A stretch of 64,000 bases of DNA from Acutalibacteraceae bacterium (GTDB lineage: Bacteria; Bacillota; Clostridia; Oscillospirales; Acutalibacteraceae): positions 1-64,000 of the forward strand of contig JAZSOH010000025.1 in the NCBI GenBank assembly GCA_045536815.1, in the 5' to 3' direction. The notes beneath the pieces are model-generated. The model saw only the letters and a list, made by a program, of their open reading frames with translations. It searched no databases and was not told where the DNA came from. Position numbers and translations under genes: made by a program. This document shows positions 22,672-45,290 of the stretch, piece by piece (the first letter of the stretch is position 1; each line of letters begins with the position of its first letter).

Positions 22672-22756
22672 GGGAGTGTTCCCGAGTGGCCAAAGGGGGC
22701 AGACTGTAAATCTGTTGTCTTCGACTTCGGTGGTTCGAATCCACCCGCTCCCACCA
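22672..22756 (+). tRNA. tRNA-Tyr (anticodon GTA)
   Basis: Acceptor GGGAGTG/CGCTCCC. Anticodon loop cTGTAaa. Long variable arm. T-arm GGTGGTTCGAATCCACC. Encoded CCA. Confidence 0.9.
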
Positions 22757-22760
22757 AAAC

Positions 22761-22795
22761 AAAAAACCGACCAAAAGGTCGGTTTTTTGTTTTGT
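22761..22795 (+). terminator. rho-independent terminator after tRNA-Tyr
   Basis: aaaaaaccgacc-aaaa-ggtcggtttttt. Confidence 0.75.
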
Positions 22796-22967
22796 GGCAG
22801 AAAGGGTGAGATGAGAACCACCGAAGGTGGTGTACGTCGAAGCAGCCCAAAAGCCGCGATAGGCTTTTGGGACTGTGAAGTCTCGAGCAACGCAGATTTT
22901 TCGCAACCGCTCGGAGTGGTCGAAAAATCAAGGGGCGCAGAGTATCCACCCGCTCCCACCAAAAAAT
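22789..22967 (+). repeat. ~180-bp element copy 1, ending with a 19-bp copy of the tRNA-Tyr 3' end (atccacccgctcccacca)
   Basis: Near-identical to 25491-25670 (only 2 mismatches seen). Internal hairpins (cccaaaagcc/ggcttttggg). Followed by its own terminator. Confidence 0.85.
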
Positions 22968-22993
22968 CCAAGTCTTCGGACTTGGATTTTTTT
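22962..22993 (+). terminator. rho-independent terminator after repeat copy 1
   Basis: aaaaaatccaagtc-ttcg-gacttggattttttt. Confidence 0.8.
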
Positions 22994-23452: not shown

Positions 23453-25321
23453 ATGAAATGTAATAAATGTGGAACAGAACTACCAAAAGGTGCAAAATTC
23501 TGCTCTAATTGTGGCCATAAAACCGAAACTAAACAACAGGAAATAGTGGTTAATGTAGAAAATACAGCTACCAAAACAAATGATCCTGTTGTGGAAACTC
23601 AAAAGAAAGAAACGATAGTAGATAAAGCAAAGGAAAAAGGTATTTCTTTTTGGAAACAGCGTAGTCGCCTTGGCAAACTTGCAACCATATCATTAGTCTT
23701 ATTCTCACTCTTTGCTTTCATTGCTTTGGTTTCTGGAAAAGTCGGTGCGGTTATAGTTTCGCTTTTGGCGATCGGACTTACTGTTGTCGGAATACTGATG
23801 AAACGACAAGTTATAAAGGTAAAAAAGACATGGCTTCCGCTACTATCTATAATCCTCTCATTTGTGCTTGTTTTACCCTTTTTTTCATTCTTTGGTTCGG
23901 ATGAGTCTGGTCGAGAAAAGTATAATTGGAATGAAGTTGTATTAGCCGATATCTTACCACAGCCGGTTTCTCCCTATGGCGAAATAATCACAAACTCTGA
24001 AGATTATCTCTCTATGGATATAACCGAAACAACTCAAGATCAATATAAGGATTACATCGCAGCTTGTGAAGCAAAAGGTTTCACCATAGATAAGGAATCC
24101 TCCGATAGCAATTTCTCTGTATTTAACGAAACTGGATATAAACTGTCATTGAGTTATTATGATTATAGCAGTGAGATGCATATCAATGTTGACTCTGCTA
24201 TGGAGACGGAAACAATAACTTGGCCAGAAACTGAAATGGCAAAGTTATTGCCTGTTCCGAAATCTACCACTGGTAAGATTCAAAGTAATGACGAAGATGG
24301 GTTCACTGTTTATATTGGCGCTACATCCATCGAGAACTACAATGCCTATGTAAAGTATTGTGAAGAAAAAGGATTTACTGTTGATGCCCAAAAAGATGAT
24401 AAGCATTACACTGCAAAAAATGCTGAGTCTTATAAACTGACAGTTAATTATGAAGGAAATAATGTTATTTATATCTCAATCACAGAACCCGAATTCAAAA
24501 TTAATATCGAAGTTGAATGTGTTGAGAATTGGGTATTTAGCAAATATGATGTTGATGTCAGCATAGATGATATGTTCGAAGGAACTATCACTCATGGCGA
24601 TACCGAAACATTCGAAACTGTTCTTAAACGAGGAAATCATACAATCTCCTTTGAGAGCGCAGATGATGATACCTTGGATGGAAAGGTTGAAATGAATGTT
24701 TCGAAAGATGAAACCATCAAGCTGAAGATATCTTGTTCAAGCTCTGGCGTTGATGTTGAGGTTGTCTCTGGCACAACTGCTGAAGATGCTGAAAAAGCAA
24801 GGAATATGGCAGGTGCTCCAGATGTATGGACAAACCTATTAGAGAAACATTATGAAGAAGTTAAAAAGCAATTTGAAGATGCTGGATTTACTAATGTTAC
24901 CTGCGTAGCACACGAAATCGACTATGATGAGAACAATGTCTTTGAAGGAAGTGTAGTTAATATCGCCATTGGCGAAGATGGTGACATCTGCACATTTGAA
25001 AAAGGCGAACAATGGGAAAAAGATATTAAGATCAGAATAGATTATCGTGTGAAACCTGCTAAAGAAGAAACTACTACACCACCAAGCAATGAAACAGAAA
25101 CTCCTTCCCAATCTCAAGATAACGATGATAATTCAGGTGGAAACACAGGAGTTACCGTCCCCGATGAAGAAGAAAGTGAAGGGGATTTGGTGTGGGTTCC
25201 TACAAACGGCGGCACCAAATATCATTCAAGAGCAGGTTGTAGCAATATGAAAGATCCGAAACAAGTATCCAAAGAAACCGCCGAAGCAAATGGCTATACT
25301 CCCTGTAAGAGATGCCACTAA
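23453..25321 (+). CDS. membrane protein with N-terminal zinc ribbon, two tandem extracellular ~95-aa repeats and C-terminal Cys/His cluster
   Basis: CNKCGTELPKGAKFCSNCGH zinc ribbon, then 3 TM helices. Repeats DQYKDYIAACEAKGFTIDKE and ENYNAYVKYCEEKGFTVDAQK. C-terminal YHSRAGCSNM…GYTPCKRCH. Confidence 0.7.
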   Translation: MKCNKCGTELPKGAKFCSNCGHKTETKQQEIVVNVENTATKTNDPVVETQKKETIVDKAKEKGISFWKQRSRLGKLATISLVLFSLFAFIALVSGKVGAVIVSLLAIGLTVVGILMKRQVIKVKKTWLPLLSIILSFVLVLPFFSFFGSDESGREKYNWNEVVLADILPQPVSPYGEIITNSEDYLSMDITETTQDQYKDYIAACEAKGFTIDKESSDSNFSVFNETGYKLSLSYYDYSSEMHINVDSAMETETITWPETEMAKLLPVPKSTTGKIQSNDEDGFTVYIGATSIENYNAYVKYCEEKGFTVDAQKDDKHYTAKNAESYKLTVNYEGNNVIYISITEPEFKINIEVECVENWVFSKYDVDVSIDDMFEGTITHGDTETFETVLKRGNHTISFESADDDTLDGKVEMNVSKDETIKLKISCSSSGVDVEVVSGTTAEDAEKARNMAGAPDVWTNLLEKHYEEVKKQFEDAGFTNVTCVAHEIDYDENNVFEGSVVNIAIGEDGDICTFEKGEQWEKDIKIRIDYRVKPAKEETTTPPSNETETPSQSQDNDDNSGGNTGVTVPDEEESEGDLVWVPTNGGTKYHSRAGCSNMKDPKQVSKETAEANGYTPCKRCH

Positions 25322-25368: not shown

Positions 25369-25490
25369 TTTAGGAATGTTGTGTTTTGATTAATAATGAT
25401 TATTTGTCGAACAGATAATGTTTTTTTGAAAGAATACTAAAAAATCGATAGTTTTTGCTCTTTTTTCAAAAAACAAAGTGGCATCTAAAT

Positions 25491-25670
25491 GTTTTGTGGC
25501 AGAAAGGGTGAGATGAGAACCACCGAAGGCGGTGTACGTCGAAGCAGCCCAAAAGCCGCGATAGGCTTTTGGGACTGTGAAGTCTCGAGCAACGCAGATT
25601 TTTCGCAACCGCTCGGAGTGGTCGAAAAATCAAGGGGCGGAGAGTATCCACCCGCTCCCACCAAAAAATC
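25491..25670 (+). repeat. ~180-bp element copy 2, ending with the tRNA-Tyr 3'-end copy
   Basis: Direct repeat of 22789-22967. Followed by a different terminator. Confidence 0.85.
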
Positions 25671-32027: not shown

Positions 32028-32102
32028 TTAAAGGAAAAAGTGTTTGCAAAAGACTTATAATTTTTTGTTATAAAACTACATAGTGAAGATTTAAACATAA
32101 AC

Positions 32103-32148
32103 TTAGTAAACCCCGCGCTATTCCAACAACGGAATAGCGCGGGGTCCT
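32103..32148. repeat. 43-bp hairpin repeat copy 1 (tagtaaaccccgcgctattccaacaacggaatagcgcggg), terminator-like
   Basis: 14-bp perfect stem. Identical to 34010-34052. Confidence 0.85.
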
Positions 32149-32152
32149 TTTA

Positions 32153-32341
32153 TTACTTAACTTCGCTATTTTCTATTGCATAATCAAGCAAAATGTTTAT
32201 CAGTTCATTCCTGGAACGGTTGGTTTGCTCTGCTAATTTATCTAGTTTAACGACAGTTTCATCCTTTATTCTAATAGAAAAGATTTTATACCCATCCTCA
32301 CCCTTTAAAGATTTTTTATTTATGATGAGTTTTTCTTTCAT
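32153..32341 (-). CDS. ribbon-helix-helix (CopG/Arc-like) small DNA-binding protein
   Basis: 62 aa. …KIFSIRIKDETVVKLDKLAEQTNRSRNELINILLDYA RHH pattern. Confidence 0.5.
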   Translation of the reverse strand: MKEKLIINKKSLKGEDGYKIFSIRIKDETVVKLDKLAEQTNRSRNELINILLDYAIENSEVK

Positions 32342-33613: not shown

Positions 33614-34007
33614 GATAAAAGAGAACATAAAAAGTAAAAAATATTCCCTATATTCTTTTGGTATAGGGAGTATATTTTTTATTATTTTGTATACAATAAC
33701 TAAATTATTTAACATATCTTTATGCCCCATAAAAAATGTATTTGGTGTTTCCTGTTTTGGATGTGGAATGACAAGAGCTTTTATTTGTATTTTAGAATTC
33801 AATTTTTTAGAGGCGATAAAATATAATGTGTTGTCAATACCTGTTTTCTTTGGAATTGTAATCTATTTTTTGTTAACTATGATAGATATTTTTTTTGATA
33901 AGCAATGTGTAAAAGCGATTGATTCTTGTCTAGCAAAGAAATATATGTTTTTTGTTTATATTGCAATATTGACTGTAAGCACATATATGAATAATTATTT
34001 AATTTAA
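33594..34007 (+). CDS. DUF2752-family membrane protein
   Basis: [20 protein letters not shown] signature. Start is uncertain (33576 or 33594). Confidence 0.6.
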
Positions 34008-34009
34008 GT

Positions 34010-34052
34010 TTAGTAAACCCCGCGCTATTCCAACAACGGAATAGCGCGGGAT
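34010..34052. repeat. 43-bp hairpin repeat copy 2, terminator-like
   Basis: Identical to 32103-32145. Followed by a T-run. Confidence 0.85.
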
Positions 34053-34215
34053 TTTATTTTTGTTATATATTATATGTAGTGGGTATTGAAGTGTGTGAAA
34101 TATCTACTAAAAAATACCTCTTCAAACTTCTTAATTTCGCTTTTTTGTATATTGCATATAGTATTCTGCTGTGATATAATACATTGTAATTTTGTTATAA
34201 AGGAAGCGTATTTTC

Positions 34216-35490: not shown

Positions 35491-35664
35491 ATATTGCTCT
35501 AAAATTAAATACGTTTTTTATTACGCCCATACCCTATAATTAAGCAACAGCTTTTTTTGTGGGGTGTGGGCGTAAATATTTAATAATATTTTTTCAAAAA
35601 TGGCTTGTAAAAAGTGATTATAAGTGATATAATTATTATGCTTAAAAAATTAAGAGGTGATAAT

Positions 35665-37239
35665 ATGGCAAAAACAAACTTGACCAAAAAAATCATTACC
35701 CTTATTGCTCTTATGCTTTGTGTTGTAATGGCGTTTTCTGCTTGTAACCAAACAGGCGGCGAAAACCCTGAAAAAGAGGGCGAAACGCAAAACACTTTGC
35801 AAAATGAGAATGAGGACACCGCATCTAAAGATGAGGGAACCGAAGAAGGGGATAAGGACACCGAATCCAAAGACAAGGATACCGAATCTGAAGATAAAGA
35901 TACCGAGTCTAAAGACGAGGGTACTGAATCTGAAGACAAAAACGACAAACCCTCAGGTGGTAACAAGCCTTCAAGTAACGAGAAGTCTACCGTTTGGGGT
36001 TCAAATGATGTCGATGAAATCCTTAAGTCTATGCCCGATAAGGTAAAGGATAAAGAAATTCATGTTCTTATGTGGCGTGAGTATACCGAGTCTGAGCAAA
36101 AGCAGGTTGACGACTTCCAAAAGAAAACCGGTGTTAAGGTTAGAACTACCATAACAACCGAGTATGAATATTCAACCAAACTTATTGCTCTTATTTCTGA
36201 TAAAGATGCTCCCGACGTTGTTAACCTTGGTTGCCGCGAGTTCCCTTCGCGTCCTACAAAGGCGATGCAGCTTTTGGATGAAGAAACCTTCCGTTTGGAT
36301 GACGAGTGTTGGCAAAAATCTTATATGGAGCCATATAGTGTTAAGGGCAAATACTACAGCGTAGCAATGCCTGGCACTTGGTCGGTAGAGGATACAACCT
36401 TTATTACAATATATAATAAAGCTATCCTTAAAGATGCCGGTGTAAGCACAATGCCTTATCAGCTTTATAAATCTGGTAAGTGGAATTGGGCAGAACAGCA
36501 GAAGATTATGGAAAAGGTTAAGGCAGCAGGTAAAGTTCCTATGACAACTCAAGGCGCTGACCTTTATATGCTTTCTGCTGGTGTCGACTTTGCTAGCTAT
36601 AATCCTACCAAGGGCGAGTTCGTAAGCCTTTTGGATGATACTAAGGTTCGTCCCGCAATCGAAAATTCTTGGAAAGCTCTCCAAGAAGCAACAAATAAAG
36701 AGCTTATAACAACTCAGTTTGATATTTCGGGCTTTAGACAGGGTAAATATGGCTTTATGTCTATTATCTGCTTCACCTTCTATAATCAGGGTGGCCACCT
36801 TGACGGTGTAGACGGCGGAATTCAAAATATTGAGGCAGTTCCTGTTGCAGGTCCCACACAAAGCTCGGCATATATACCTTTCCGTCCTAAAGCATGGGGC
36901 GTTGCAAAGGGCGCTGACAATGTTGAAGGCGCAGCATATTTTATCAGATATTTCCTTGACCCCAAAACTATTGATATGGATAGCACTTTCTGGCATAAAC
37001 AGTTTAAAGAAGTGTTCAATATCATAACTGATAAAAACGCTCGTAAGATGGTTCAGGTTGGTTACGGTATAACCGATTATAGTAATGGTAGAGGCACTTA
37101 CGACGCTATCGTTAATGAACTTGCAACTGCTACTGTTGGTCAGGCACCAACAATTATCAATAAGCATAAGGGTAAAATCAATATATCTATTAAACGTGCT
37201 AATGCTGCTATTGAAAGAGTTGCTAAAAAAATAAAATAA
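35665..37239 (+). CDS. extracellular solute-binding lipoprotein (SBP family 1-like) with acidic D/E/K low-complexity linker
   Basis: Lipobox AFSACN. Linker DTESKDKDTESEDKDTESKDEGTESEDK. Core LMWREYTESEQKQVDDFQKKTGVKV…. RBS AAGAGGTGA. Confidence 0.7.
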   Translation: MAKTNLTKKIITLIALMLCVVMAFSACNQTGGENPEKEGETQNTLQNENEDTASKDEGTEEGDKDTESKDKDTESEDKDTESKDEGTESEDKNDKPSGGNKPSSNEKSTVWGSNDVDEILKSMPDKVKDKEIHVLMWREYTESEQKQVDDFQKKTGVKVRTTITTEYEYSTKLIALISDKDAPDVVNLGCREFPSRPTKAMQLLDEETFRLDDECWQKSYMEPYSVKGKYYSVAMPGTWSVEDTTFITIYNKAILKDAGVSTMPYQLYKSGKWNWAEQQKIMEKVKAAGKVPMTTQGADLYMLSAGVDFASYNPTKGEFVSLLDDTKVRPAIENSWKALQEATNKELITTQFDISGFRQGKYGFMSIICFTFYNQGGHLDGVDGGIQNIEAVPVAGPTQSSAYIPFRPKAWGVAKGADNVEGAAYFIRYFLDPKTIDMDSTFWHKQFKEVFNIITDKNARKMVQVGYGITDYSNGRGTYDAIVNELATATVGQAPTIINKHKGKINISIKRANAAIERVAKKIK

Positions 37240-37253
37240 TAATTTAAAAGCGA

Positions 37254-37290
37254 AATACCTTTCCCTAAATTTTGGGAAAGGTATTTTTTA
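37254..37290 (+). terminator. rho-independent terminator
   Basis: aaatacctttccc-aaaatt-tgggaaaggtattttt. Confidence 0.8.
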
Positions 37291-37532
37291 TATTCAGTAG
37301 TAAAATAAAAACAGTTTGTGAATTTTTTAAAAAAAGTCTAAAATGTTGTTGCTTTTGAAAAAATGTTGTTGTATAATTCTATTAGAGATAAAAAGCTCTT
37401 TTATATGGTCCTCTTGGCAAGATGATTTTATTCATTCAGGTCAGTTGTCTAAGGCCATATAAATCGTAAATGTTTTTTAATATTTACATATTTTGATTAT
37501 TAAGTATTTTAAAAAATATGAGGTGACCAAAA

Positions 37533-39107
37533 ATGAAATCTAGTTCTTTAATTAAAAAGCTTCTTGTTGCAATCGCACTTATGCTTTGCGTTGTAATGGC
37601 TTTTTCTGCATGTACTGGTAATAAAACACCTGCTGATAACGACGATACCGACGTTAATCAAGGTCAGGTTGATACTACCGATGATGACGATAAAGACACA
37701 AAAGACGATGCCGACGACAAAGACGATGCCGACGACAAAGACGATAAAGACGATAAAGACGATAAAGACGACAAAGACGACAAGGATGATAAAGACGATA
37801 AAGATGACAACGACGACAAATCATCTAAGCCAAACAAACCCACTAATACTGATGGTATGACAGTTTGGGAGTCTGAAAAGGTTGAAGATATCCTTGCAAA
37901 TATTCCTGAAAAGGTAAAGAAGAAAGAAATTCATATTCTTATGTGGCGTGAATATACCACATCTGAGCAGAAACAGATTGACGATTTCCAGAAAAAGACT
38001 GGTATCAAAATCAGAACTACTCTTACAACCGAGTATGAATATTCAACCAAGCTTATCGCTCTTATCTCTGATAAGGATTCTCCTGACGTTGTAACACTTT
38101 CGTCAATGGAATTCCCCGCACGTGCTACAAAAGCAATGAAGCTTTTGGATCCTGAGGTTTTCCGCCTTGATGACAAAATTTGGAATAAGACTTATATGGA
38201 TGACTTTAGACTTAAAGATAAGTACTATTCTGTAGCTATTACAGGTACATGGTCTGTTGAAGACTGTAACTATCTTTCTATCTATGACAAATCCATTCTT
38301 GCTGACGCAGGTGTAAGCACAATGCCTTACGACCTTTATAAAGCAGGTAAGTGGAACTGGGCAGAGCAACAAAAGATTATGGAAAAGGTTAAGGCTTCGG
38401 GTAAAACTGGTATGACAATTCAGTCTCCTGACCTTTATATGCTTTCCGCCGGTGTTGACTTTGCTGACTACGATCCTGACAAAGCTCAGTTCGTAAGCCT
38501 TCTCGACGATGCTAAAGTTCGTCCTACAATCGAAAGTTCTTGGAAAGCTCTTCAAGAGGCTACAAGTAAAGAACTTATCTATCCTACACTCGACATCTCG
38601 GGTTATAGACAGGGTAAATATGGCTTTATGTCCATCATTTGCTTTACTCTTTATAACCAGGGTGGACATCTTGACGGTGTAGACGGTGGTGTTGCTGATA
38701 TCGAAGCAGTTCCTCTTGCAGGTCCTACTCAGGCTAGCGCTTACGTTCCTGTTCGTGCTAAGACTTGGGGTGTTGCAAAGGGTGCTGATAACGAAGAGGG
38801 TGCAGCATACTTCCTCAGATATTATCTCGACCCCACAACTGTTAATATGGATAGCACATTCTGGCACAAGCAGTTTAAAGAAGTATACAATATCATTACT
38901 AAGAGCAACAAGAAGATTACTCTTGTAGGCTCGGGTGTTACCGACTATAGTAATGGTATCGGTACTTATGACTCAATCTGCTCTGAACTTGCTAATGGTA
39001 CTGTAGGTCAGGCACCTACAATCCTTAATAAGCACAAGGGTAAGATTGGTACATCACTCAAACGTGCTAACAACGTTTTGGAAAGAACCGTTGCTAAAGG
39101 TAAATAA
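37533..39107 (+). CDS. paralogous solute-binding lipoprotein with poly-(D/K) linker
   Basis: About 70% identical to the 35665-37239 product over the core. Linker DDKDDADDKDDKDDKDDKDDKDDKDDKDDKDDNDDK. Confidence 0.7.
   Translation: MKSSSLIKKLLVAIALMLCVVMAFSACTGNKTPADNDDTDVNQGQVDTTDDDDKDTKDDADDKDDADDKDDKDDKDDKDDKDDKDDKDDKDDNDDKSSKPNKPTNTDGMTVWESEKVEDILANIPEKVKKKEIHILMWREYTTSEQKQIDDFQKKTGIKIRTTLTTEYEYSTKLIALISDKDSPDVVTLSSMEFPARATKAMKLLDPEVFRLDDKIWNKTYMDDFRLKDKYYSVAITGTWSVEDCNYLSIYDKSILADAGVSTMPYDLYKAGKWNWAEQQKIMEKVKASGKTGMTIQSPDLYMLSAGVDFADYDPDKAQFVSLLDDAKVRPTIESSWKALQEATSKELIYPTLDISGYRQGKYGFMSIICFTLYNQGGHLDGVDGGVADIEAVPLAGPTQASAYVPVRAKTWGVAKGADNEEGAAYFLRYYLDPTTVNMDSTFWHKQFKEVYNIITKSNKKITLVGSGVTDYSNGIGTYDSICSELANGTVGQAPTILNKHKGKIGTSLKRANNVLERTVAKGK
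37690..37830 (+). repeat. tandem 9-bp repeats (gacgataaa/gacgacaaa) encoding the DDK linker
   Basis: Repeats are visible directly in the sequence. Confidence 0.85.
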
Positions 39108-39798
39108 TTTATAAAAATTTCGGCTTTGTATTGGGAGACACTTCGTAAAGAAGTGCCTCCCAATTTCTTTTATATTATAAATAACACTTTCGATAGATAA
39201 GTGTCATAGTGGGTTATATACATTGAAAATACACCTATCTCAAAGATAAAATATTGTGTGAGAGGACTCACAGTGATATTTTGCCTTACGGCAAAGTGAT
39301 ATTGAAATCTGCGGTTTTAGTTTTAATATATTCGCATAAAAACTGTCCGAAGGACAATATAACGCTGCTTTGCATCATATAACTGCGCAGCAATATAACT
39401 CGCCGATAGGCGAATATAACTGAGTCACACTTTTTTTACAGAGTGTGACTCTTGGCGGGGCCTATTTTTTATTTATGTATCAATTTCCCAATACGTTCGT
39501 AGGGGACATTCACGAATGTCCCGTGAACCGCCGTAAATTTGTACATATTATATTTGTATTATAAATTTCCACGTTTCGCATACAAATAAAATTTTAATAC
39601 ATCGCCAAATTCAAACGGGCGAATCGTGATTCGCCCCTACAACAAATTTATAATAACACACCGTAGGGGACATTCACGTCCCACGCGGTGGGCACCGTCA
39701 CGCGCAACCTAATTGTATGAAATTTAAATTCCGCATCCCGCACCCGTAATTTTATCAATGTTATAATTACACCGTAGGTGCTACTTACGAATTGTTCG

Positions 39799-39886
39799 TA
39801 GCTAACTTTAGGTCTATTTAGCTATCGCGAAGCGATAATTTAGCTACCGTAAGGTTATTTAGCTGCTCCGAAGGAGCAATTTAACT
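39799..39886 (+). promoter_or_regulatory. ATTTAGCT box array (4 boxes, 22/19/22-bp spacing) with variable hairpin spacers
   Basis: Boxes at 39816, 39838, 39857 and 39879. Spacers atcgcgaagcgat, accgtaaggt and gctccgaaggagc are each palindromic. Confidence 0.75.
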
Positions 39887-39893
39887 GTAAATA

Positions 39894-39972
39894 TTTTTTA
39901 CAATTTTTTTGCAAAATTTTGTAAAAAAGATTTACTTTACCTCTTGTTACAATTTTTAAAATGTGTTATTAT
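39894..39972 (+). promoter_or_regulatory. inverted repeat TTTTTTACAA-N15-TTGTAAAAAA plus promoter (TTGTTA-17-TATTAT) of the prs-like gene
   Basis: Read directly in the sequence. The same cassette recurs at 41803-41884. Confidence 0.55.
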
Positions 39973-40004
39973 ATATGTGATGATTTTTTGGAGGTTGATT
40001 TTTA

Positions 40005-41156
40005 GTGGCAACAATAACTTTTAAACATACTCCGTTTGGCGAACTTGCGCTTGTAAGTATGCGTGGCTGTGAGGATATTTCTAAAAGGGTAGATTATTAT
40101 CTTACACAGTGGCGCGAAACCCCCGAAGACCATAGCTTTATAGTTAAAGCTACCTGTCCGCGTTTTGGCTCGGGTGAGGGTAAAGCGGTTTTCAGTCATT
40201 CCGCTAGGGGACTTGACGTATATATTATATGTGACTGCTTTAATCATGGCGTTACATATACAATGTATGGTAAAACCGTTCCTATGAGTCCTGACGACCA
40301 TTATCAAGATTTAAAACGCGTTATCGCATCTTTAGGCGGTAAGGCTAGAAGAATAACTGTTATTATGCCAATGCTTTATGAGGGTAGGCAACACCGCCGC
40401 TCCTCCAGAGAATCTTTAGACTGCGCTATGGCTCTTCAAGAGCTTATAAATATGGGTGTTTCAAATATTATCACTTTTGACGCTCATGACCCAAGGGTAC
40501 AAAACGCTATTCCTCTTGGCGGCTTTGATAATGTTCAGCCTACATATCAAATGATAAAGGCTCTTGTTAAAAACGTACCCGATATTGTTATTAACCGCGA
40601 AAAAACTATGATAGTTTCTCCCGACGAGGGTGGTATGGGCCGTTGTATCTATTATTCTTCGGTTTTAGGGCTCGACCTTGGTATGTTCTATAAACGCCGT
40701 AATTATTCGGTTATTGTTAACGGCCGTAATCCTATCGAGGCTCACGAATGGCTCGGTAAAGACGTTAAGGGTAAAGACCTTATTATTGTAGACGATATGA
40801 TTTCTTCGGGCGACTCAATGCTTGATATTGCTGAGAAGCTCAAGAAAAAAGGTGCAGGCCGTATATTTATCTTCTCAACCTTTGGCCTTTTTGTTGAAGG
40901 TCTTGAAAAGTTTGATGAGTATTATGAAAATGGCCTTATCGATAAGGTGTTCACAACCAATCTTATTTATTCAACCCCCGAACTCAGAAGTAGGGAGTGG
41001 TACTGTAATGTAGACCTCTCTAAATATATTGCCTATTTGGTTGATACCCTCAATTACGATAATTCTATTAGCGATTTGCTTAACCCCGCCGAAAGAATTG
41101 CTAACCTTATGGTAAAACATAATAAAGAACTTGAAGAAAAAGGTATTGCGCATTAG
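40005..41156 (+). CDS. ribose-phosphate pyrophosphokinase (PRPP synthetase) family protein, long divergent form
   Basis: GTG start after GGAGG. Prs motifs RFGSGEG, EGRQHRR, FDAHDP, VSPDEGG, DDMISSGDS. 383 aa versus about 315 aa typical. Confidence 0.7.
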   Translation: MATITFKHTPFGELALVSMRGCEDISKRVDYYLTQWRETPEDHSFIVKATCPRFGSGEGKAVFSHSARGLDVYIICDCFNHGVTYTMYGKTVPMSPDDHYQDLKRVIASLGGKARRITVIMPMLYEGRQHRRSSRESLDCAMALQELINMGVSNIITFDAHDPRVQNAIPLGGFDNVQPTYQMIKALVKNVPDIVINREKTMIVSPDEGGMGRCIYYSSVLGLDLGMFYKRRNYSVIVNGRNPIEAHEWLGKDVKGKDLIIVDDMISSGDSMLDIAEKLKKKGAGRIFIFSTFGLFVEGLEKFDEYYENGLIDKVFTTNLIYSTPELRSREWYCNVDLSKYIAYLVDTLNYDNSISDLLNPAERIANLMVKHNKELEEKGIAH

Positions 41157-41164
41157 CGCAATAC

Positions 41165-41280
41165 CTTTTATAGTTAAATGCGACTATCGTCGCGCTAAAT
41201 AGTCACTTCGTGACAGCTAAATAACTCCTGCGGAGTAGCTAAATTATCGCTACGCGATAGCTAATTTTGTTGAAAAAATT
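41165..41280 (-). promoter_or_regulatory. inverted-orientation box array (AGCTAAAT x5, 21-22-bp spacing) with hairpin spacers
   Basis: Boxes at 41172, 41193, 41215, 41237 and 41259. Spacer hairpins gtcacttcgtgac, actcctgcggagt and tatcgctacgcgata. Confidence 0.7.
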
Positions 41281-41316
41281 ATGCCTCTATTATATAATAA
41301 TGTAAGAGGTGATTTT

Positions 41317-41667
41317 ATGTCTGAAAGTATTATGTTGAATAAGGCGAAAGAACTTGCCGTAAAGGTTATAAAACTTTGCCGTATTATAAGGGAAAAGGAA
41401 AGAGAAACAGTTTTAACGAATCAGTTGCTTAAATCCGGTACGAGTATAGGCGCTAATATACATGAGTCAAAATATGCTCAAAGCAGTGCTGATTTTGTAC
41501 ATAAAATGCAAATAGCTTTAAAAGAATGTTATGAGAGTGAATATTGGCTTGAGCTTATGAATAAATCCGGATATATAGATGATGTAGAGTATAATGATTT
41601 AAATAACGAGTGTGGGCAAATCCGACGTATGCTTATAAGTTCAATAAACACCTTAAAAAACAAATAG
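41317..41667 (+). CDS. four-helix-bundle protein (TIGR02436 / 23S rRNA intervening-sequence protein family, Avd-like)
   Basis: 116 aa. …KSGTSIGANIHESKYAQS…EYWLEL… family pattern. RBS AGAGGTGA. The longer ORF starts at 41281. Confidence 0.7.
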   Translation: MSESIMLNKAKELAVKVIKLCRIIREKERETVLTNQLLKSGTSIGANIHESKYAQSSADFVHKMQIALKECYESEYWLELMNKSGYIDDVEYNDLNNECGQIRRMLISSINTLKNK

Positions 41668-41701
41668 CTTGTTTTTTTCACACTCAGCGTTACTTTGCCG
41701 A

Positions 41702-41884
41702 ATTTAGCTATCGCGTAGCGATAATTTAGCTGACCTTTAGGTCTATTTAGCTATCGCGTAGCGATAATTTCGCTGCCCGTCAGGGCAATTTAGTTGTAAA
41801 TATTTTTTACAAAAAATTTTTTTCAAAATTTTGTAAAAAATATTTACTTTACCTATTGACTTTTTCTTAACGAAGTAGTAGAAT
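41702..41884 (+). promoter_or_regulatory. ATTTAGCT box array (5 boxes) plus inverted repeat (41803-41840) plus promoter TTGACT-17-TAGAAT
   Basis: Boxes at 41702, 41724, 41745, 41767 and 41788. Homologous to 39799-39972. Confidence 0.7.
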
Positions 41885-41966
41885 ATAGTAAAATAAATAG
41901 AATGTGTGTATTATTGTTTGGCTTAATTTTATTTATTATTAAAATTTTTTAGTTGGAGGAATATCA

Positions 41967-44216
41967 ATGAAAAAAATTCTAACAATTTTGCTCACAGTAA
42001 TCCTCGTTGTTTCGGGTTGCTGGGGCGCGCTTACCGCAAGTGCGGCAGGCACAACTGCTTTTGAAACAAGAGCAAATTGGAAGTCCGTAAATGGTGGCGG
42101 TACAATTATTGATACTGCTACTCATAATGATGGACACTTAGGCAACAACTGGGACGATAAATATACGTACGGCGATGGCGGAACTTCTATGGTTCTTCCC
42201 TTTACAAATGTTCACCGTGCAGTATTCATTAAGCTCGAAGGCTTAACTTCCGGTACTAAGTACGAGCTTAGCTTTAAGTACTACATCCCCTCTACCGTTG
42301 CTAGCTACGACGGTGCAGGCCAGGCTATTCTTCACGCTGCTGTTTATAATGAGGGTACAGTTCATTCTAATGGTCGTTTAACCATTAACTCTAAGGCTAG
42401 TGAAAATGCTGTTAGCTTCACCTCTACAACTGGTGAAGATGCAAACGGTGCTCCTATTTGGCAGTATGGTAAGGTTACCTTTACTCAAGGTGCTACAAAC
42501 CTCTACTTCGCAATTAGCCAGGTTACAACTTCTGATAATGCTATGTATCTTGACGATATCAAGGTAACTGAGGCTAACGCAGCAGCTCTTGCTCAGCCTA
42601 ATTCTACTGCTTCTCCTATGGATAAAGATTATAGCGTTAACGCTAGTTGGGCATCATATCATCCTAATCAGGCAAACCAAGCAGCTTATCCTAAAGTATT
42701 AAACGGCACAAGTGGTTGTACTTGGAAGGGTTCTGATGATGCATCTGTTTATCCTGACGGAAATGCAGTTAAATTTGCTTATCCTGATGTTACACTCTTT
42801 ACTCAGGCAACAAAAATCATCAATCTTACTGTTGGTAAAACCTATACTATTAGTTACAAATATATGATTCCTGCTGGTGTAAATTATGGTGGTACTGGCT
42901 ATATTTTCAGAAGAGGTCTTTATCCTGTAAACCAAGGCTATGCTTCAACTTCTACCTATTATCCAAATGATACAGGCGCTTATGTTGCAGGTAAAAATAT
43001 CACAGCCAACACTAACGGTGAATGGCTTACCGAGACAATGACCTTCACAGCTACTGCAACTGAAGCAATGCTTGGTCTTTCATTCCGTTCAGCAGCTGCT
43101 ACTGACGTATATTATATCGCTGATGTTCAGGTTGCTGAACACGGTGCATATAGTGCAGATATGCTCTTCACAAAATATGCTAAATCTACAACCGTTGATG
43201 GTTCTTCTGAACTTCGTGGTGCTTGGCCTTCATCAACAGTTTATCCCGGCGGTCAGGGCAACACATCTTCATACTCTTTCCTCATTTCCGGTGCTGGTAC
43301 ACAGTTCGGTGCTTCTGCTATGAGGCTCAACGGCCTTGCTGCTGGTATGAAGTATAGAGTTAGCTTTAAATATTATATCGGTGATGGCAACGCACCTTCT
43401 GCTGGTGTTCCTTACATTCTTAGCGCAAACGTAGTTAAGAGTGGCGCAGTTTTAAGTGCTCTTGGTTTACCTACAAATAATATTATTTCAACCTCTGCAG
43501 CCAACCTTTTGACAACAGGCGGTACTGATGATGCTGCTGTTTGGAAATCTGCACATGTTGACTTTACTGCTGCTGAAGGCGACAACTTCTTTATCGTTTC
43601 TCAGCGTGTTGGTACTGAAGGCGCAGGCAGAATGATTGACGAAATCGAGGTTACTCCTCTTGCAGTTGAAACCTTTACAGAAAGCAAAGCTGCTGTAAGA
43701 CTTTACCTCAACCAAGACGAGAAAATTGAAGAGAATAAAAAGCCCGGTCTTCGTATCTACAATAAGTTAGACGCTACTTGGGCATCCGCTCTTGACCTTG
43801 TTGAATTTGGTTCAGTTGCTATCAAAGCTTCTAACCTCACAACAAGTCAGCTTTCACTTAACACAGCTGGTGCTATTTCTGGTGTTTCTTACAAAACAAT
43901 CGGCGGTAACACATCACTTATCTGGGCAAAAGATTCTGCTTCTACTACCTTTACTGCATACTTAAGCGGTATCTCTGCTAAGAACTATGGTCAAGACTAT
44001 GTAGTTCGCGCATACGCTAAAGATATTAATGGTAACGTTTACTACGGTGACCAGATTAGCATTTGTATCTACGACGTAGTTAAAACTATCTTCGATACTA
44101 CTTCTACTTGGAACGATGACTGTACAATCGCTCAAGACTTTATCGATGCAGGTAATGCAGCAGCTGAGCTTGACGATTCAGTAGTTACCTATGATGAGTG
44201 GAAAGCAGCACAATAA
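41967..44216 (+). CDS. secreted protein with three tandem CBM-like beta-sandwich repeats and a C-terminal domain of unknown function
   Basis: Signal peptide MKKILTILLTVILVVSGCWGALTASAAG. Three ~170-aa repeats each ending …Y.DDI.V. (LSFKYYIP…YLDDIKVTEA; ISYKYMIP…YIADVQVAEH; VSFKYYIG…IDEIEVTPL). Confidence 0.6.
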   Translation: MKKILTILLTVILVVSGCWGALTASAAGTTAFETRANWKSVNGGGTIIDTATHNDGHLGNNWDDKYTYGDGGTSMVLPFTNVHRAVFIKLEGLTSGTKYELSFKYYIPSTVASYDGAGQAILHAAVYNEGTVHSNGRLTINSKASENAVSFTSTTGEDANGAPIWQYGKVTFTQGATNLYFAISQVTTSDNAMYLDDIKVTEANAAALAQPNSTASPMDKDYSVNASWASYHPNQANQAAYPKVLNGTSGCTWKGSDDASVYPDGNAVKFAYPDVTLFTQATKIINLTVGKTYTISYKYMIPAGVNYGGTGYIFRRGLYPVNQGYASTSTYYPNDTGAYVAGKNITANTNGEWLTETMTFTATATEAMLGLSFRSAAATDVYYIADVQVAEHGAYSADMLFTKYAKSTTVDGSSELRGAWPSSTVYPGGQGNTSSYSFLISGAGTQFGASAMRLNGLAAGMKYRVSFKYYIGDGNAPSAGVPYILSANVVKSGAVLSALGLPTNNIISTSAANLLTTGGTDDAAVWKSAHVDFTAAEGDNFFIVSQRVGTEGAGRMIDEIEVTPLAVETFTESKAAVRLYLNQDEKIEENKKPGLRIYNKLDATWASALDLVEFGSVAIKASNLTTSQLSLNTAGAISGVSYKTIGGNTSLIWAKDSASTTFTAYLSGISAKNYGQDYVVRAYAKDINGNVYYGDQISICIYDVVKTIFDTTSTWNDDCTIAQDFIDAGNAAAELDDSVVTYDEWKAAQ

Positions 44217-44243
44217 TTAACTAATTATAGGAGGGAAATTTCA

Positions 44244-44357
44244 ATGAAAAAATATAATGCACCTGAGTTTGAAATCAAAGAGCCTAAATTAGTTAACATG
44301 ATGCTTGATTTAGGCGAAATCGGTTCCGATACCGAGCTCGACTTTGATGAAGAATAA
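44244..44357 (+). CDS. candidate 37-aa acidic small peptide
   Basis: MKKYNAPEFEIKEPKLVNMMLDLGEIGSDTELDFDEE. GGAGGG RBS 9 nt upstream. Shorter than the ORF-track cutoff. Confidence 0.35.
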   Translation: MKKYNAPEFEIKEPKLVNMMLDLGEIGSDTELDFDEE

Positions 44358-45290
44358 TTAATAAAACTTCGGCTTTGTATTGGGAGCTACTTCGTATAGA
44401 AGAAGCTCCCAATTTTTTTATTTTATAAATAACACTTTCGGTAGATAAGTATCATAGTTGGTTATATACCTTGAAAAAACACCTATCTCAAAGATAAAAC
44501 CTAGTAGTGTTATTGTGTGAGAGGTCTCACAAAGATATTTTCCTTACGGCAAAGTGATATTGAAATCTGCAGTTTTAGTTTTAATATATTCGCATAAAAA
44601 CTGTCCAAAGGACAATATAACGATGCTTAGTATCATATAACTGCGTAGCAATATAACTCGCCGACAGGCGAATATAACTGAGTCACACTTCATTACGGAG
44701 TGTGACTCTTGGCGGGGCCGATTTTTTTATTTATATATCAATTCCCAATATGTCCGTAGGGGACATTCATGTCCCACGCGGTGGGCGACGCCACGCGTAA
44801 CCTAATTGTATGAAATTTAAATTCCGCTTCCCGCGCCCGTAATTTTATCAATGTTATAATTACACCGTAGGGGCTACTTACGAATCGCCCGTAATGTGAA
44901 CCGTCGTAAATTTGTACATATTATATTTGTGTTATAAATTTACGCGTTTCGCATACGAATAAAATTTTAATACACCGCCAAATTCAAACGGGCGAATCGT
45001 GATTCGCCCCTACAACAAACTTATAATCACACCGTAGGGGACATTCACGTCCCACGCGGTGGGCGCCGCCACGCGCAACCTAATTGTATGAAATTTAAAT
45101 TCCGCATCCCGCGCCCGTAATTTTATCAATGTTATAATTACACCGTAGGGGCTACTTACGAATCGCCCGTAACCAACCTTCAGGTCAATTTAGTTGCTTA
45201 AAGCAATAATAATTTTATAATTGTTATTGCTTTAAGCTGTTTTTTTTGATATAATTATAATGTAAATCTATATTATTTTTTTCGAGGTGT
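44358..45290 (+). repeat. ORF-free hairpin-dense ~0.9-kb element, copy B
   Basis: Collinear with copy A, with an extra ~140-bp unit duplication (44752-44895 and 45032-45170). Bounded by terminators at 44380-44424 and 45196-45250. Internal TGTTATAAT extended -10-like boxes. Confidence 0.85.
45196..45250 (+). terminator. strong rho-independent terminator ending repeat B
   Basis: gcttaaagcaataa…ttattgctttaagc 14-bp stem followed by T8. Confidence 0.8.

What the first reader, a model, noticed from the sequence alone, without database searches (positions are those of the whole stretch)
39108..45290. Two paralogous ~0.9-kb ORF-free, hairpin-saturated elements, one bounded by terminators: candidate large structured ncRNA or novel repeat family
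Regions 39108-40004 (A) and 44358-45290 (B) are collinear and ~85-90% identical by eye. Neither contains an ORF of 60 aa or more in any of six frames. Each starts immediately at the stop codon of an upstream secreted-protein gene with a homologous terminator hairpin. B ends in a very strong terminator (45196-45250), so B is a terminator-to-terminator unit with internal TGnTATAAT-like boxes. Both are built almost entirely of short hairpins. Where A and B differ, the substitutions fall in hairpin loops while stems are preserved: cgccgataggcg vs cgccgacaggcg; tgtccgaaggaca vs tgtccaaaggaca; gggacattcacgtccc vs gggacattcatgtccc; gagtcacac…gtgtgactc with different loops. This is a conservation-of-structure signature. 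B also carries a tandem duplication of a ~140-bp subunit (44752-44895 and 45032-45170) that is single or partial in A.
Basis: seen in the sequence. Interest (0 to 1): 0.8.

Follow-up and report, generated by a model that had tools for sequence, protein, structure and literature searches.

The report
Mosaic of palindromic intergenic repeat modules
The two 0.9-kb gene-free stretches are real copies of each other, but they are strain-variable patchworks of two kinds of small hairpin repeats (REP-like palindromes and Gut-1-like hairpin arrays), not one large structured RNA gene; the hairpin arrays belong to a widespread, little-studied family in gut Clostridia that sits next to a small four-helix-bundle protein gene.

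Summary
A (39108-40004) and B (44358-45290) are collinear and about 92% identical. Neither has an ORF of 60 aa or more. Both fold far better than shuffles (z = -8.3 and -13.0). The reading as one large structured ncRNA does not hold. In metagenome contigs whose flanks are 94-97% identical to the window, A is absent, replaced by about 20 nt, and B is 278 bp shorter. A-versus-B substitutions hit predicted stems as often as loops (7.6% vs 8.0%), and 17 of 27 stem changes break a pair. No large-RNA Rfam family matches.

A and B are mosaics of four module types:
1. A terminator.
2. A two-armed hairpin array, which gives sub-threshold Rfam Gut-1 hits (41 and 37 bits; gathering score 50).
3. A cluster of REP-like "GTAGGGG + palindrome" units. 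The same type of unit directly follows a RAYT-like transposase gene in a related MAG.
4. An ATTTAGCT-linker half-array.

The ATTTAGCT arrays form a large family in Oscillospirales MAGs. The usual form is 4 + 4 hairpins around a conserved centre. The hairpins covary strongly and their loops match DNA mini-hairpins (C-GNA-G). Elements often lie just after tRNA or tmRNA genes and directly next to PF05635 four-helix-bundle genes. The function of the arrays is unproven.

The parts
39108..39170 (+). Terminator hairpin T1 after the SBP gene (stem 39131-39163, then a T-run). Homologous to 44358-44419.
   Evidence: (D15)
39171..39253 (+). Lead-in. It holds the motif GTGTCATAGTGGGTTATAT (39201-39221), which also lies upstream of arrays in L013, L046, L074, L083 and L114. 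It also holds a promoter-like TTGAAA-18-TAAAAT (39223-39252).
39254..39421 (.). Two-armed Gut-1-like hairpin array (M1). Left arm: GTGATAT linkers at 39273 and 39296. Centre: TATATTCGCAT at 39327-39337. Right arm: four ATATAAC linkers at 39357, 39377, 39393 and 39414, separating short hairpins.
   Evidence: Rfam RF01706 hits at 39352-39422 (-) 37.3 bits and 39221-39307 (+) 22.6 bits. Same layout as the Gut-1 seed sequences and as L058. Coordinates.
39422..39470 (+). Closing hairpin GAGTCACAC...GTGTGACTC, then GGCGGGGCC and a T-run (weak terminator).
39499..39522 (+). REP-like unit GTAGGGGACATTCACGAATGTCCC (GTAG followed by a perfect 9-bp palindrome).
39523..39659 (.). Segment V. AT-rich spacer plus a REP-like unit on the minus strand (GTAGGGGCGAATCACGATTCGCCC, 39617-39640).
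   Evidence: (D10)
39657..39809 (+). 153-nt unit U. It holds a shortened REP-like unit (39663-39682), a TGTTATAAT box (39759-39767) and a degenerate REP-like unit (39774-39800).
   Evidence: (D3)
39806..39886 (+). Half-array of four hairpin + ATTTAGCT units. It is a copy of 41735-41795.
   Evidence: (D13)
39887..40004 (+). AT hairpin, prs promoter (TTGTTA-17-TATTAT, 39944-39972) and RBS. This stretch is also present in the A-less allele L002, so it is not part of the repeat.
41157..41270 (.). Inverted arm with five AGCTAAAT-type units, immediately upstream of the four-helix-bundle gene.
   Evidence: (I1, I3, I4)
41317..41667 (+). Four-helix-bundle protein gene (PF05635 / TIGR02436). It has its own TTGAAA-17-TATAAT promoter at 41270-41298 and lies between the two inverted arms.
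41692..41858 (+). Arm of five ATTTAGCT-type units (41702-41795), then an AT hairpin and a promoter module. It is a copy of 39806-39946.
   Evidence: (D13, D19)
44358..44419 (+). Terminator hairpin T1' after the 37-aa ORF.
44516..44679 (.). Two-armed Gut-1-like array M1'. Centre at 44585-44595. ATATAAC linkers at 44615, 44635, 44651 and 44672.
   Evidence: Rfam RF01706 hit at 44610-44680 (-) 41.0 bits. Coordinates.
44680..44727 (+). Closing hairpin, then GGCGGGGCCGA and T7 (terminator-like).
44750..45180 (.). REP-like cluster arranged U1 (44750-44902), V (44896-45032), U2 (45028-45180). GTAGGGG units lie at 44756, 44867, 45034 and 45145 on the plus strand, and at 44990-45013 on the minus strand. 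The 278-bp V + U period is absent from L002-type alleles.
45174..45250 (+). Last array unit (ccttcaggtc + AATTTAGTT, shared with L001), followed by the strong terminator (45196-45250).

Best explanation
A and B are two diverged copies of a composite block of intergenic DNA. They are not one gene. Each block strings together small palindromic repeat modules:
- a terminator;
- a complete two-armed Gut-1-class hairpin array;
- a BIME-like cluster of REP-type 'GTAG + palindrome' units separated by AT-rich spacers;
- part of an ATTTAGCT-linker hairpin array.

How the blocks arise and change (inferred). They are built and remodelled at the DNA level. Recombination between the repeated modules is the likely driver: the U/V tandem expansion has its junctions at GTAGGGG units, and the A allele differs from the 'empty' allele by a replacement rather than an insertion. 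A RAYT-type single-strand transposase acting on the REP-like units probably contributes.

What they do where they sit (inferred). The effect is most likely passive and local. A dense run of stable hairpins and terminators between unrelated operons stops read-through and protects the 3' end of the upstream, probably highly expressed, secreted-protein mRNA. This is what REP/BIME clusters do downstream of malE in E. coli.

The array hairpins themselves look selected or generated as single-stranded DNA mini-hairpins rather than as RNA.
For: Composite and strain-variable:
- L002 to L006 share 94-97% identical flanks with the window. They lack A, with about 20 nt in place of 39123-39900. Their B is 660 bp and has a single U unit.
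- L001 encodes an identical ThyX but carries an array of five ATTTAGCT-type units where the window has the REP cluster.
- Substitutions are not biased to loops.

Gut-1-class module:
- Sub-threshold RF01706 hits cover the arrays.
- The Gut-1 seed sequences show the same order: terminator, arm, centre GCGAAUAUA, then an AUAUCAC arm.
- L058 carries a 79-80% identical homologue of this module.

REP-like module:
- All six CGTAGGGG matches in the 64-kb window lie in A or B, against 0.5 expected by chance.
- The units are GTAG followed by 5-9-bp palindromes.
- In L087 a 170-aa ORF matches NCBIfam 'REP-associated tyrosine transposase' (E = 2e-16). Its only PDB hit is TnpA-REP 4ER8. GTAGGGGCGATTCACGAATCGCCC follows its stop codon directly.

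Array family:
- The three-linker ATTTAGCT pattern gave at least 120 stretches, nearly all in Clostridia/Oscillospirales MAGs.
- Elements typically have 4 + 4 units.
- 72% of 410 unique spacers form hairpins, against 12% of shuffled spacers.
- 155 alignment cells show a change on both sides of a pair, against 43 in shuffles (0 of 500 shuffles reach the observed value).

DNA-like hairpins:
- 89 of 148 triloops are GNA, and 77 of those 89 are closed by C-G.
- Tetraloops split GNRA 25 versus GNYA 34.
- This matches the mini-hairpin DNA motif GCGNAGC / GCGNNAGC (PMC13037366, PMC3201870).
- G-U pairs are almost absent from the covarying stems.

Terminators lie at both ends and inside the blocks.
Against: - No expression or stability data exist, so the insulator/stabiliser role is an analogy.
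- The REP-like units are not dispersed in this window; every copy sits in A or B. No RAYT gene lies within the 64 kb. The source genome could not be retrieved, so copy number is unknown.
- The L087 transposase match is below NCBIfam's curated cut-off (60 vs 80 bits).
- The strong covariation and conserved 4 + 4 layout of the arrays show they are more than filler. Weinberg et al. rated Gut-1 as a certain RNA.
- The extended -10 boxes inside the U units and a TTGAAA-18-TAAAAT promoter in front of M1 could drive discrete transcripts.
Confidence: 0.62

Rival explanations
1. The Gut-1-like module inside A and B (39254-39470 and 44516-44727) is a discrete small-RNA gene of about 200-250 nt that acts as RNA, for example as a protein sponge or a partner of the four-helix-bundle protein. 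The rest of A and B is repeat filler.
For: - Weinberg et al. 2010 classed Gut-1 as a certain RNA and a non-cis-regulatory sRNA.
- The local hairpins covary strongly.
- Elements have defined ends, and in my crude test 20 of 79 have a terminator-like tail after the second arm.
- A promoter-like TTGAAA-18-TAAAAT lies just upstream of M1 in A.
- G:T mismatches favour one strand of each arm: 9 vs 2 and 7 vs 0.
Against: - The loops are GNA triloops closed by C-G, and GNNA tetraloops with no purine preference at the third position. That is the DNA mini-hairpin signature, not the RNA GNRA signature.
- G-U pairs are almost absent.
- The strand that tolerates G:T differs between the two arms, so no single transcript carries both arms in the favoured form.
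- In B the -10 box reads TAAAAC.
- The scores are below Rfam's gathering threshold.
Confidence: 0.2
2. A and B each encode one large (about 0.8-0.9 kb) structured non-coding RNA of the OLE/GOLLD/ROOL type.
For: - Very low folding energies.
- B is bounded by terminators.
- There are no ORFs.
Against: - A is absent from 94-97% identical relatives, and B varies by 278 bp.
- L001 has a different sequence at the same place.
- Substitutions are not loop-biased, and most stem changes break pairs.
- There is no Rfam match.
- Internal terminators cut the block into pieces.
- The parts occur separately in other genomes.
Confidence: 0.03
3. The arrays are cis-acting sites of a so far undescribed system that works with the Avd-like four-helix-bundle protein. 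It could be a mobile or IVS-like cassette, or a protein/single-stranded-DNA hairpin system. A and B would carry solo copies or remnants of it.
For: - The PF05635 gene lies within about 45 nt of an array in 11 other loci.
- In the window the gene sits between inverted arms, like the ORF of a 23S rRNA intervening sequence.
- 16 of 16 neighbouring tRNA or tmRNA genes lie on the same side and in the same orientation, 30-48 nt away.
- Own knowledge, not tested here: DGR targets need a DNA hairpin with a GRNA loop, and DGR Avd belongs to PF05635.
Against: - Most elements (about 67 of 79) have no adjacent four-helix-bundle gene.
- No enzyme gene is linked.
- Only 2 of 26 viral-contig pattern matches are true arrays.
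- No target-site duplications were seen.
- A and B themselves have no four-helix-bundle gene inside them.
Confidence: 0.15

Closest known systems
Gut-1 RNA motif (Rfam RF01706; Weinberg et al. 2010, PMC2864571)
   Same: - Tandem short hairpins separated by a constant 7-8-nt linker (GUGAAAU or GUGAUAU).
- The seed sequences show the same order of terminator, arm, centre GCGAAUAUA and AUAUCAC arm, including a position just after a tRNA gene.
- The model aligns end to end with the window arrays.
   Different: - Scores of 41.0 and 37.3 bits are below the gathering score of 50. The ATTTAGCT-linker arrays score 27 bits or less and reach the threshold in none of 18 carrier loci.
- The Rfam model covers only one arm. 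The full element has two inverted arms.
- The loop and wobble statistics found here point to DNA rather than RNA hairpins.
REP / BIME / REPIN elements and their RAYT (TnpA-REP) transposases of Proteobacteria
   Same: - A 5' GTAG followed by a 20-25-nt palindrome.
- Extragenic location after genes.
- Units clustered in both orientations with spacer motifs.
- Variable copy number between strains.
- A RAYT-like gene directly flanked by the same kind of unit in a related MAG.
   Different: - The host is a Firmicute (Clostridia).
- The units were seen only inside A and B in the 64-kb window, not dispersed.
- No RAYT gene lies in the window.
- The L087 protein is below the curated NCBIfam cut-off.
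- Genome-wide copy number is unknown.
BOX elements of Streptococcus pneumoniae (modular boxA-boxB(n)-boxC repeats)
   Same: Modular intergenic repeat with a variable number of internal units and complementary ends that can fold into a long stem-loop. This comparison rests on my own knowledge.
   Different: - There is no sequence relation.
- Here the repeated unit is a constant linker plus a variable palindrome, arranged as two inverted arms around a conserved centre.
23S rRNA intervening sequences that encode a PF05635 four-helix-bundle protein; DGR accessory protein Avd
   Same: The same protein family (PF05635 / TIGR02436) is encoded between inverted repeats in the window, or directly beside them in other genomes.
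   Different: - The element is not inside an rRNA gene.
- No reverse transcriptase or template repeat is nearby.
- The flanking repeats are arrays of mini-hairpins, not one long stem.

Membership tests
Gut-1 RNA (RF01706) | Covariance-model score at or above Rfam's gathering score (50 bits) | tested here: not met
   41.0 bits (44610-44680, minus strand), 37.3 bits (39352-39422, minus strand) and 27.3 bits (41719-41796, minus strand). No hit at the gathering score in 18 array-bearing loci.
Gut-1 RNA (RF01706) | Three or more short hairpins separated by a conserved GUGAAAU- or GUGAUAU-like linker | tested here: met
   The cmscan alignment covers the full model length. GTGATAT and ATATAAC linkers are present. 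The seed alignment shows the same layout.
REP / RAYT system | Palindromic unit of about 20-40 nt with a conserved 5' GTAG | tested here: met
   GTAGGGG followed by 5-9-bp stems, ten units in A and B. CGTAGGGG gives 6 matches against 0.5 expected.
REP / RAYT system | Many copies dispersed through the intergenic regions of the genome | tested here: inconclusive
   Within the 64-kb window every copy lies in A or B. The rest of the source genome could not be retrieved.
REP / RAYT system | A cognate RAYT (Y1 HUH transposase) gene flanked by the REP units | tested here: inconclusive
   None in the window. In MAG locus L087 a RAYT-like ORF (NF047646, E = 2e-16, 60 bits against a cut-off of 80; PDB 4ER8, E = 1e-3) is followed by GTAGGGGCGATTCACGAATCGCCC, on its 3' side only.
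Large structured ncRNAs (OLE, GOLLD, ROOL, HEARO, raiA) | Match to the family model, conservation of the full length across relatives, and compensatory substitutions | tested here: not met
   No Rfam match up to E = 5. A is absent and B is shortened in close relatives. Stem and loop substitution rates are equal.
MITE / non-autonomous transposon | Terminal inverted repeats and a target-site duplication at an insertion compared with an empty site | tested here: not met
   Against the L002 empty site, 39123-39900 replaces about 20 nt. No duplication and no terminal inverted repeat were found.
23S rRNA intervening sequence with PF05635 ORF | Located inside a 23S rRNA helix and excised from the rRNA | tested here: not met
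   No rRNA lies in the window. The cassette lies between prs and a secreted-protein gene.
Mini-hairpin DNA motif (GCGNAGC / GCGNNAGC) | GNA or GNNA loop closed by a 5'-C...G-3' pair on a short GC stem | tested here: met
   89 of 148 triloops are GNA, and 77 of those 89 are closed by C-G. GNNA tetraloops show no purine preference at the third position. The motif definition comes from PMC13037366 and PMC3201870. Formation in vivo was not tested.

The most novel reading that the evidence does not exclude
The Gut-1-class elements in A, B and the prs/four-helix-bundle interval are not RNA genes. They are two-armed arrays of single-stranded-DNA (or cruciform) mini-hairpins. They form a functional module with the Avd-like PF05635 four-helix-bundle protein, which would make this an undescribed nucleic-acid/protein system of gut Oscillospirales. 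The module prefers sites just downstream of tRNA or tmRNA genes and terminators, and may be related to how PF05635 cassettes enter rRNA hairpins as intervening sequences.
Probability: 0.22. Interest if true: 0.75.

Novelty: new variant of a known kind. Interest (0 to 1): 0.5.

Why it matters
For A and B themselves the result is deflationary. They are variable repeat mosaics, so they should not be annotated or pursued as a new large ncRNA.

The by-products are more useful:
- Gut-1 was an orphan metagenomic motif of unknown host. The relatives found here lie in Oscillospirales genomes (MAG titles name Ruminococcus, Oscillospiraceae and Acutalibacteraceae).
- Gut-1 is shown to be one arm of a larger two-armed element.
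- A sister family with ATTTAGCT linkers is not recognised by Rfam 15.
- The hairpins carry the signature of DNA mini-hairpins, which questions the RNA assignment.
- The tight linkage to PF05635 genes gives a first handle on a very widespread protein family whose only characterised member is the DGR accessory protein Avd.
- REP/RAYT-type elements in Clostridia are also little documented.

Tried and rejected
- Rfam at gathering and permissive thresholds gave only tRNAs and sub-threshold Gut-1 hits. No large-RNA family matched.
- The genome contigs and metagenome-contig scans with the REP-like 20-mer gave 0 hits and 1 irrelevant hit. Copies elsewhere in the source genome therefore could not be counted.
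- Exact-protein look-ups for ThyX and the four-helix-bundle protein did not recover the source contig.
- Phage origin of the arrays is unlikely. Only 2 of 26 viral-contig pattern matches are true arrays; the rest are ordinary tandem repeats.
- A decayed four-helix-bundle gene or the L002 MITE as the source of the REP zone: no similarity was found.
- A coding function for A or B is unlikely, because no ORF is shared between them.
- Long-range linker-linker pairing (a rod with branching hairpins) is picked by RNAalifold. The linker columns barely vary and never change on both sides, so there is no evidence for or against it.
- Literature searches for the linker sequences, for PF05635/TIGR02436 with repeats, and for RAYT in Firmicutes found no earlier description.

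Full report
**1. Check of the observation**

A (39108-40004) and B (44358-45290) align collinearly.
- Over 695 aligned positions there are 54 substitutions, about 92% identity. There is also an 11-nt indel and a large indel in the middle.
- Neither element contains an ORF of 60 aa or more. The small ORFs present (51, 42 and 49 aa) are not shared between A and B.
- Both fold far better than dinucleotide shuffles, with z = -8.3 and -13.0.
- B ends in a terminator with a 19-bp stem and T8.
- The 153-nt unit occurs once in A and twice in B, with a 278-bp period.
- TGnTATAAT boxes are present.
- One correction: B begins after a 37-aa ORF (44244-44357), not directly after the 749-aa protein.

**2. 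The claimed structure-conservation signature fails a quantitative test**

I used local MFE pairs with a span of 70 nt or less.
- Substitutions fall on paired positions at 7.6% and on unpaired positions at 8.0% (Fisher p = 0.89).
- Of 27 substitutions in stems, 17 destroy the pair.
- Several differences in A are G/C to A/T changes inside the GC-rich palindromes. These include GGGCGCC to GGGCACC, GTAGGGG to GTAGGTG, and CGCCCG to TGTTCG. That pattern looks like decay rather than maintenance.

**3. Close relatives show that A and B are dispensable and variable**

The exact 37-aa peptide led to metagenome contigs L002 to L006. L002 covers the whole interval, and its flanks are 94-97% identical to the window.
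- In L002 the SBP-to-prs spacer is 135 bp. Window positions 39123-39900 are replaced by about 20 nt of a simple terminator. There is no target-site duplication and no terminal inverted repeat.
- B in L002, L003, L005 and L006 is 660 bp. It has one U unit and no V segment.
- A Logan contig (L001) encodes an identical ThyX but carries five hairpin units with ATTTAGCT-type linkers where the window has the REP-like cluster.
- So at least three alleles exist at the thyX-upstream site among very close strains.
- A differs from B (about 8%) more than orthologous DNA differs between strains (3-6%). A is therefore not a recent copy of the resident B.

**4. Anatomy**

Each block consists of:
- a. Terminator T1.
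- b. A lead-in with the motif GTGTCATAGTGGGTTATAT. This motif also precedes arrays in five other genomes.
- c. Module M1, a two-armed hairpin array. It has GTGATAT linkers, a centre TATATTCGCAT, then four ATATAAC linkers, each separating a 3-6-bp hairpin.
- d. A closing 9-10-bp hairpin followed by a weak terminator.
- e. A cluster of 'GTAGGGG + palindrome' units in both orientations, separated by AT-rich spacers that carry extended -10 boxes.
- f. An ATTTAGCT-linker array. A has four units and B has one.

The interval between A and B holds more of the same material.
- An inverted arm lies at 41157-41270.
- A PF05635 / TIGR02436 four-helix-bundle gene lies at 41317-41667.
- A forward arm lies at 41692-41795.
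- A promoter module follows, duplicated from 39806-39946.

**5. Module M1 is Gut-1-like**

- Permissive cmscan places RF01706 (Gut-1) on the minus strand at 44610-44680 (41.0 bits), 39352-39422 (37.3 bits) and 41719-41796 (27.3 bits). The gathering score is 50.
- Gut-1 is an orphan motif from human-gut metagenomes with no known function (supplement text).
- Its published seed alignment contains sequences with this order: tRNA or gene, bidirectional terminator, GUGAUAU-linked short hairpins, GCGAAUAUA, then AUAUCAC-linked longer hairpins. This is the M1 layout read on the minus strand.
- L058 carries a 79-80% identical homologue of M1, directly followed by an ATTTAGCT-type element.

**6. The ATTTAGCT arrays are a large family**

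It returned 120 stretches, nearly all in Clostridia MAGs from gut and rumen whose titles name Ruminococcus, Oscillospiraceae, Acutalibacteraceae and related groups.
- The canonical element is a run of AGCTAAAT + hairpin units, then the centre TAAATTCGC-nnnn-AGC, then a run of hairpin + ATTTAGCT units. A bidirectional terminator often follows. The modal count is 4 + 4 units.
- 72% of 410 unique spacers form hairpins of 4 bp or more, against 12% after shuffling.
- On a 53-sequence alignment the local hairpins show 155 cells with changes on both sides of a pair, against 43 in shuffles (0 of 500 shuffles reach this). The covariation score is 0.289, against 0.059 or less for slid controls.
- The linker-linker pairs that RNAalifold proposes barely vary and never change on both sides, so they are uninformative.
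- None of 18 carrier loci reaches the Gut-1 gathering score. This linker type is therefore not recognised by Rfam 15.

**7. RNA or DNA?**

- On the strand that reads ATTTAGCT, 89 of 148 triloops are GNA, and 77 of those 89 are closed by C-G.
- Tetraloops are GNNA with no purine preference at the third position: GNRA 25, GNYA 34.
- This matches the definition of extraordinarily stable mini-hairpin DNA, GCGNAGC / GCGNNAGC (PMC13037366; the closing-pair effect is described in PMC3201870). It is not the RNA GNRA rule.
- G-U pairs are almost absent from the covarying helices.
- The few single mismatches are G:T on the ATTTAGCT-reading strand in both arms: 9 vs 2 over all spacers, and 7 vs 0 when the arms are separated.
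- Because the arms are inverted, the favoured strand differs between them. That is hard to reconcile with a single functional transcript.
- I therefore lean towards hairpins that matter, or are generated, at the single-stranded-DNA level. The counts are small and nothing was tested in vivo.

**8. Context of the arrays**

Orientations are relative to the order AGCTAAAT arm, centre, ATTTAGCT arm.
- 16 of 16 adjacent tRNA or tmRNA genes lie 30-48 nt beyond the ATTTAGCT arm on the opposite strand. The order is stable-RNA gene, terminator, element.
- A PF05635 gene about 70% identical to the window's lies within about 45 nt of the other arm in 11 loci.
All three have the element immediately upstream of the start codon.
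- The last hairpin (TTGAAC or TTGCAA) and the last linker resemble a -35/-10 pair. This is my reading of the sequences.
- In the window the gene sits between the two arms instead. That resembles the ORF of a 23S rRNA intervening sequence, but it is not in rRNA.

**9. The GTAGGGG units are REP-like**

- They have the GTAG head and a 5-9-bp palindrome.
- They cluster in both orientations.
- They mark the junctions of the U/V tandem expansion.
- The same kind of unit, GTAGGGGCGATTCACGAATCGCCC, occurs in L049. In L087 it directly follows a 170-aa ORF. That ORF's best family match is NCBIfam 'REP-associated tyrosine transposase' (E = 2e-16, below the curated cut-off). Its only PDB relative is E. 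coli TnpA-REP.
- Against full membership: no RAYT gene lies in the window, no copies lie outside A and B in 64 kb, and genome-wide copy number is unknown.

**10. Synthesis**

A and B are diverged copies of a composite intergenic block assembled from two families of palindromic repeats plus terminators.
- Shown: composite nature, strain variability, family membership of the modules at the level stated, and covariation of the array hairpins.
- Inferred: remodelling by recombination at repeats and by a RAYT-type enzyme, a local role as transcriptional insulator and 3'-end protector, DNA-level selection of the mini-hairpins, and a functional tie to the four-helix-bundle protein.
- The large-ncRNA reading is rejected with high confidence.
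- The sRNA reading for the Gut-1-like module remains a live rival.

**11. Organism**

- Genomes with related arrays are titled Clostridia, Oscillospiraceae, Ruminococcus or Acutalibacteraceae.
- The only syntenic sequences are short ENA and Logan metagenome contigs.

Noticed in passing
window 22788-22968 and 25490-25670: A 181-nt repeat, 99% identical between the two copies. Each copy ends with ATCCACCCGCTCCCACCA, which is the 3' end of the tRNA at 22672-22753, and each is followed by a terminator hairpin. The two copies bracket the gene at 23453-25321. There is no Rfam match, and the fold gives z = -4.2. It could be an att-like duplication of a tRNA end or a tRNA-like RNA.
   Followed up: partly
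L002 3746-4023: A 278-bp MITE-like insertion splits the four-helix-bundle gene in the related strain. It has terminal inverted repeats AGTGTGACAGG...CCTGTCACACT with tRNA T-arm-like GGTTCAAGTCC, and an apparent TA duplication. It is absent from the window.
   Followed up: partly
window 44244-44357: A 37-aa acidic ORF (MKKYNAPEFEIKEPKLVNMMLDLGEIGSDTELDFDEE) with a good RBS. It is 100% conserved in six metagenome contigs even though the neighbouring 749-aa protein differs (732 aa there). It has no Pfam match.
   Followed up: partly
window 35614-39107: Two tandem paralogous solute-binding-protein genes, 70-81% identical at the DNA level. The second has a 9-nt (Asp/Lys-rich) repeat tract at 37634-37847.
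   Followed up: no
L049 3800-4060: Hairpin arrays with other constant linkers (AATTCATG, ATGATG) lie next to an AGCTAAAT array. This suggests a wider superfamily of linker variants. GC-rich repeated blocks lie nearby.
   Followed up: no
L013, L046, L074, L083, L114 (upstream of arrays); window 39201-39221 and 44449-44469: A conserved lead-in motif, GAAAGTGTYATAGTGGGTTAT. In the other genomes it is the 3' half of an inverted repeat (for example ACCCACTATA...TATAGTGGGT in L013). In A and B only this half is present.
   Followed up: partly
window 32091-32154 and 33998-34061: A repeated 64-nt terminator hairpin (AAACCCCGCGCTATTCC...GGAATAGCGCGGGGT) follows two different genes.
   Followed up: no
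one search hit list (P0002-P0120): Most close homologues of the four-helix-bundle protein sit on very short contigs (0.5-1.5 kb). This fits assemblies breaking at the flanking repeat arrays.
   Followed up: no
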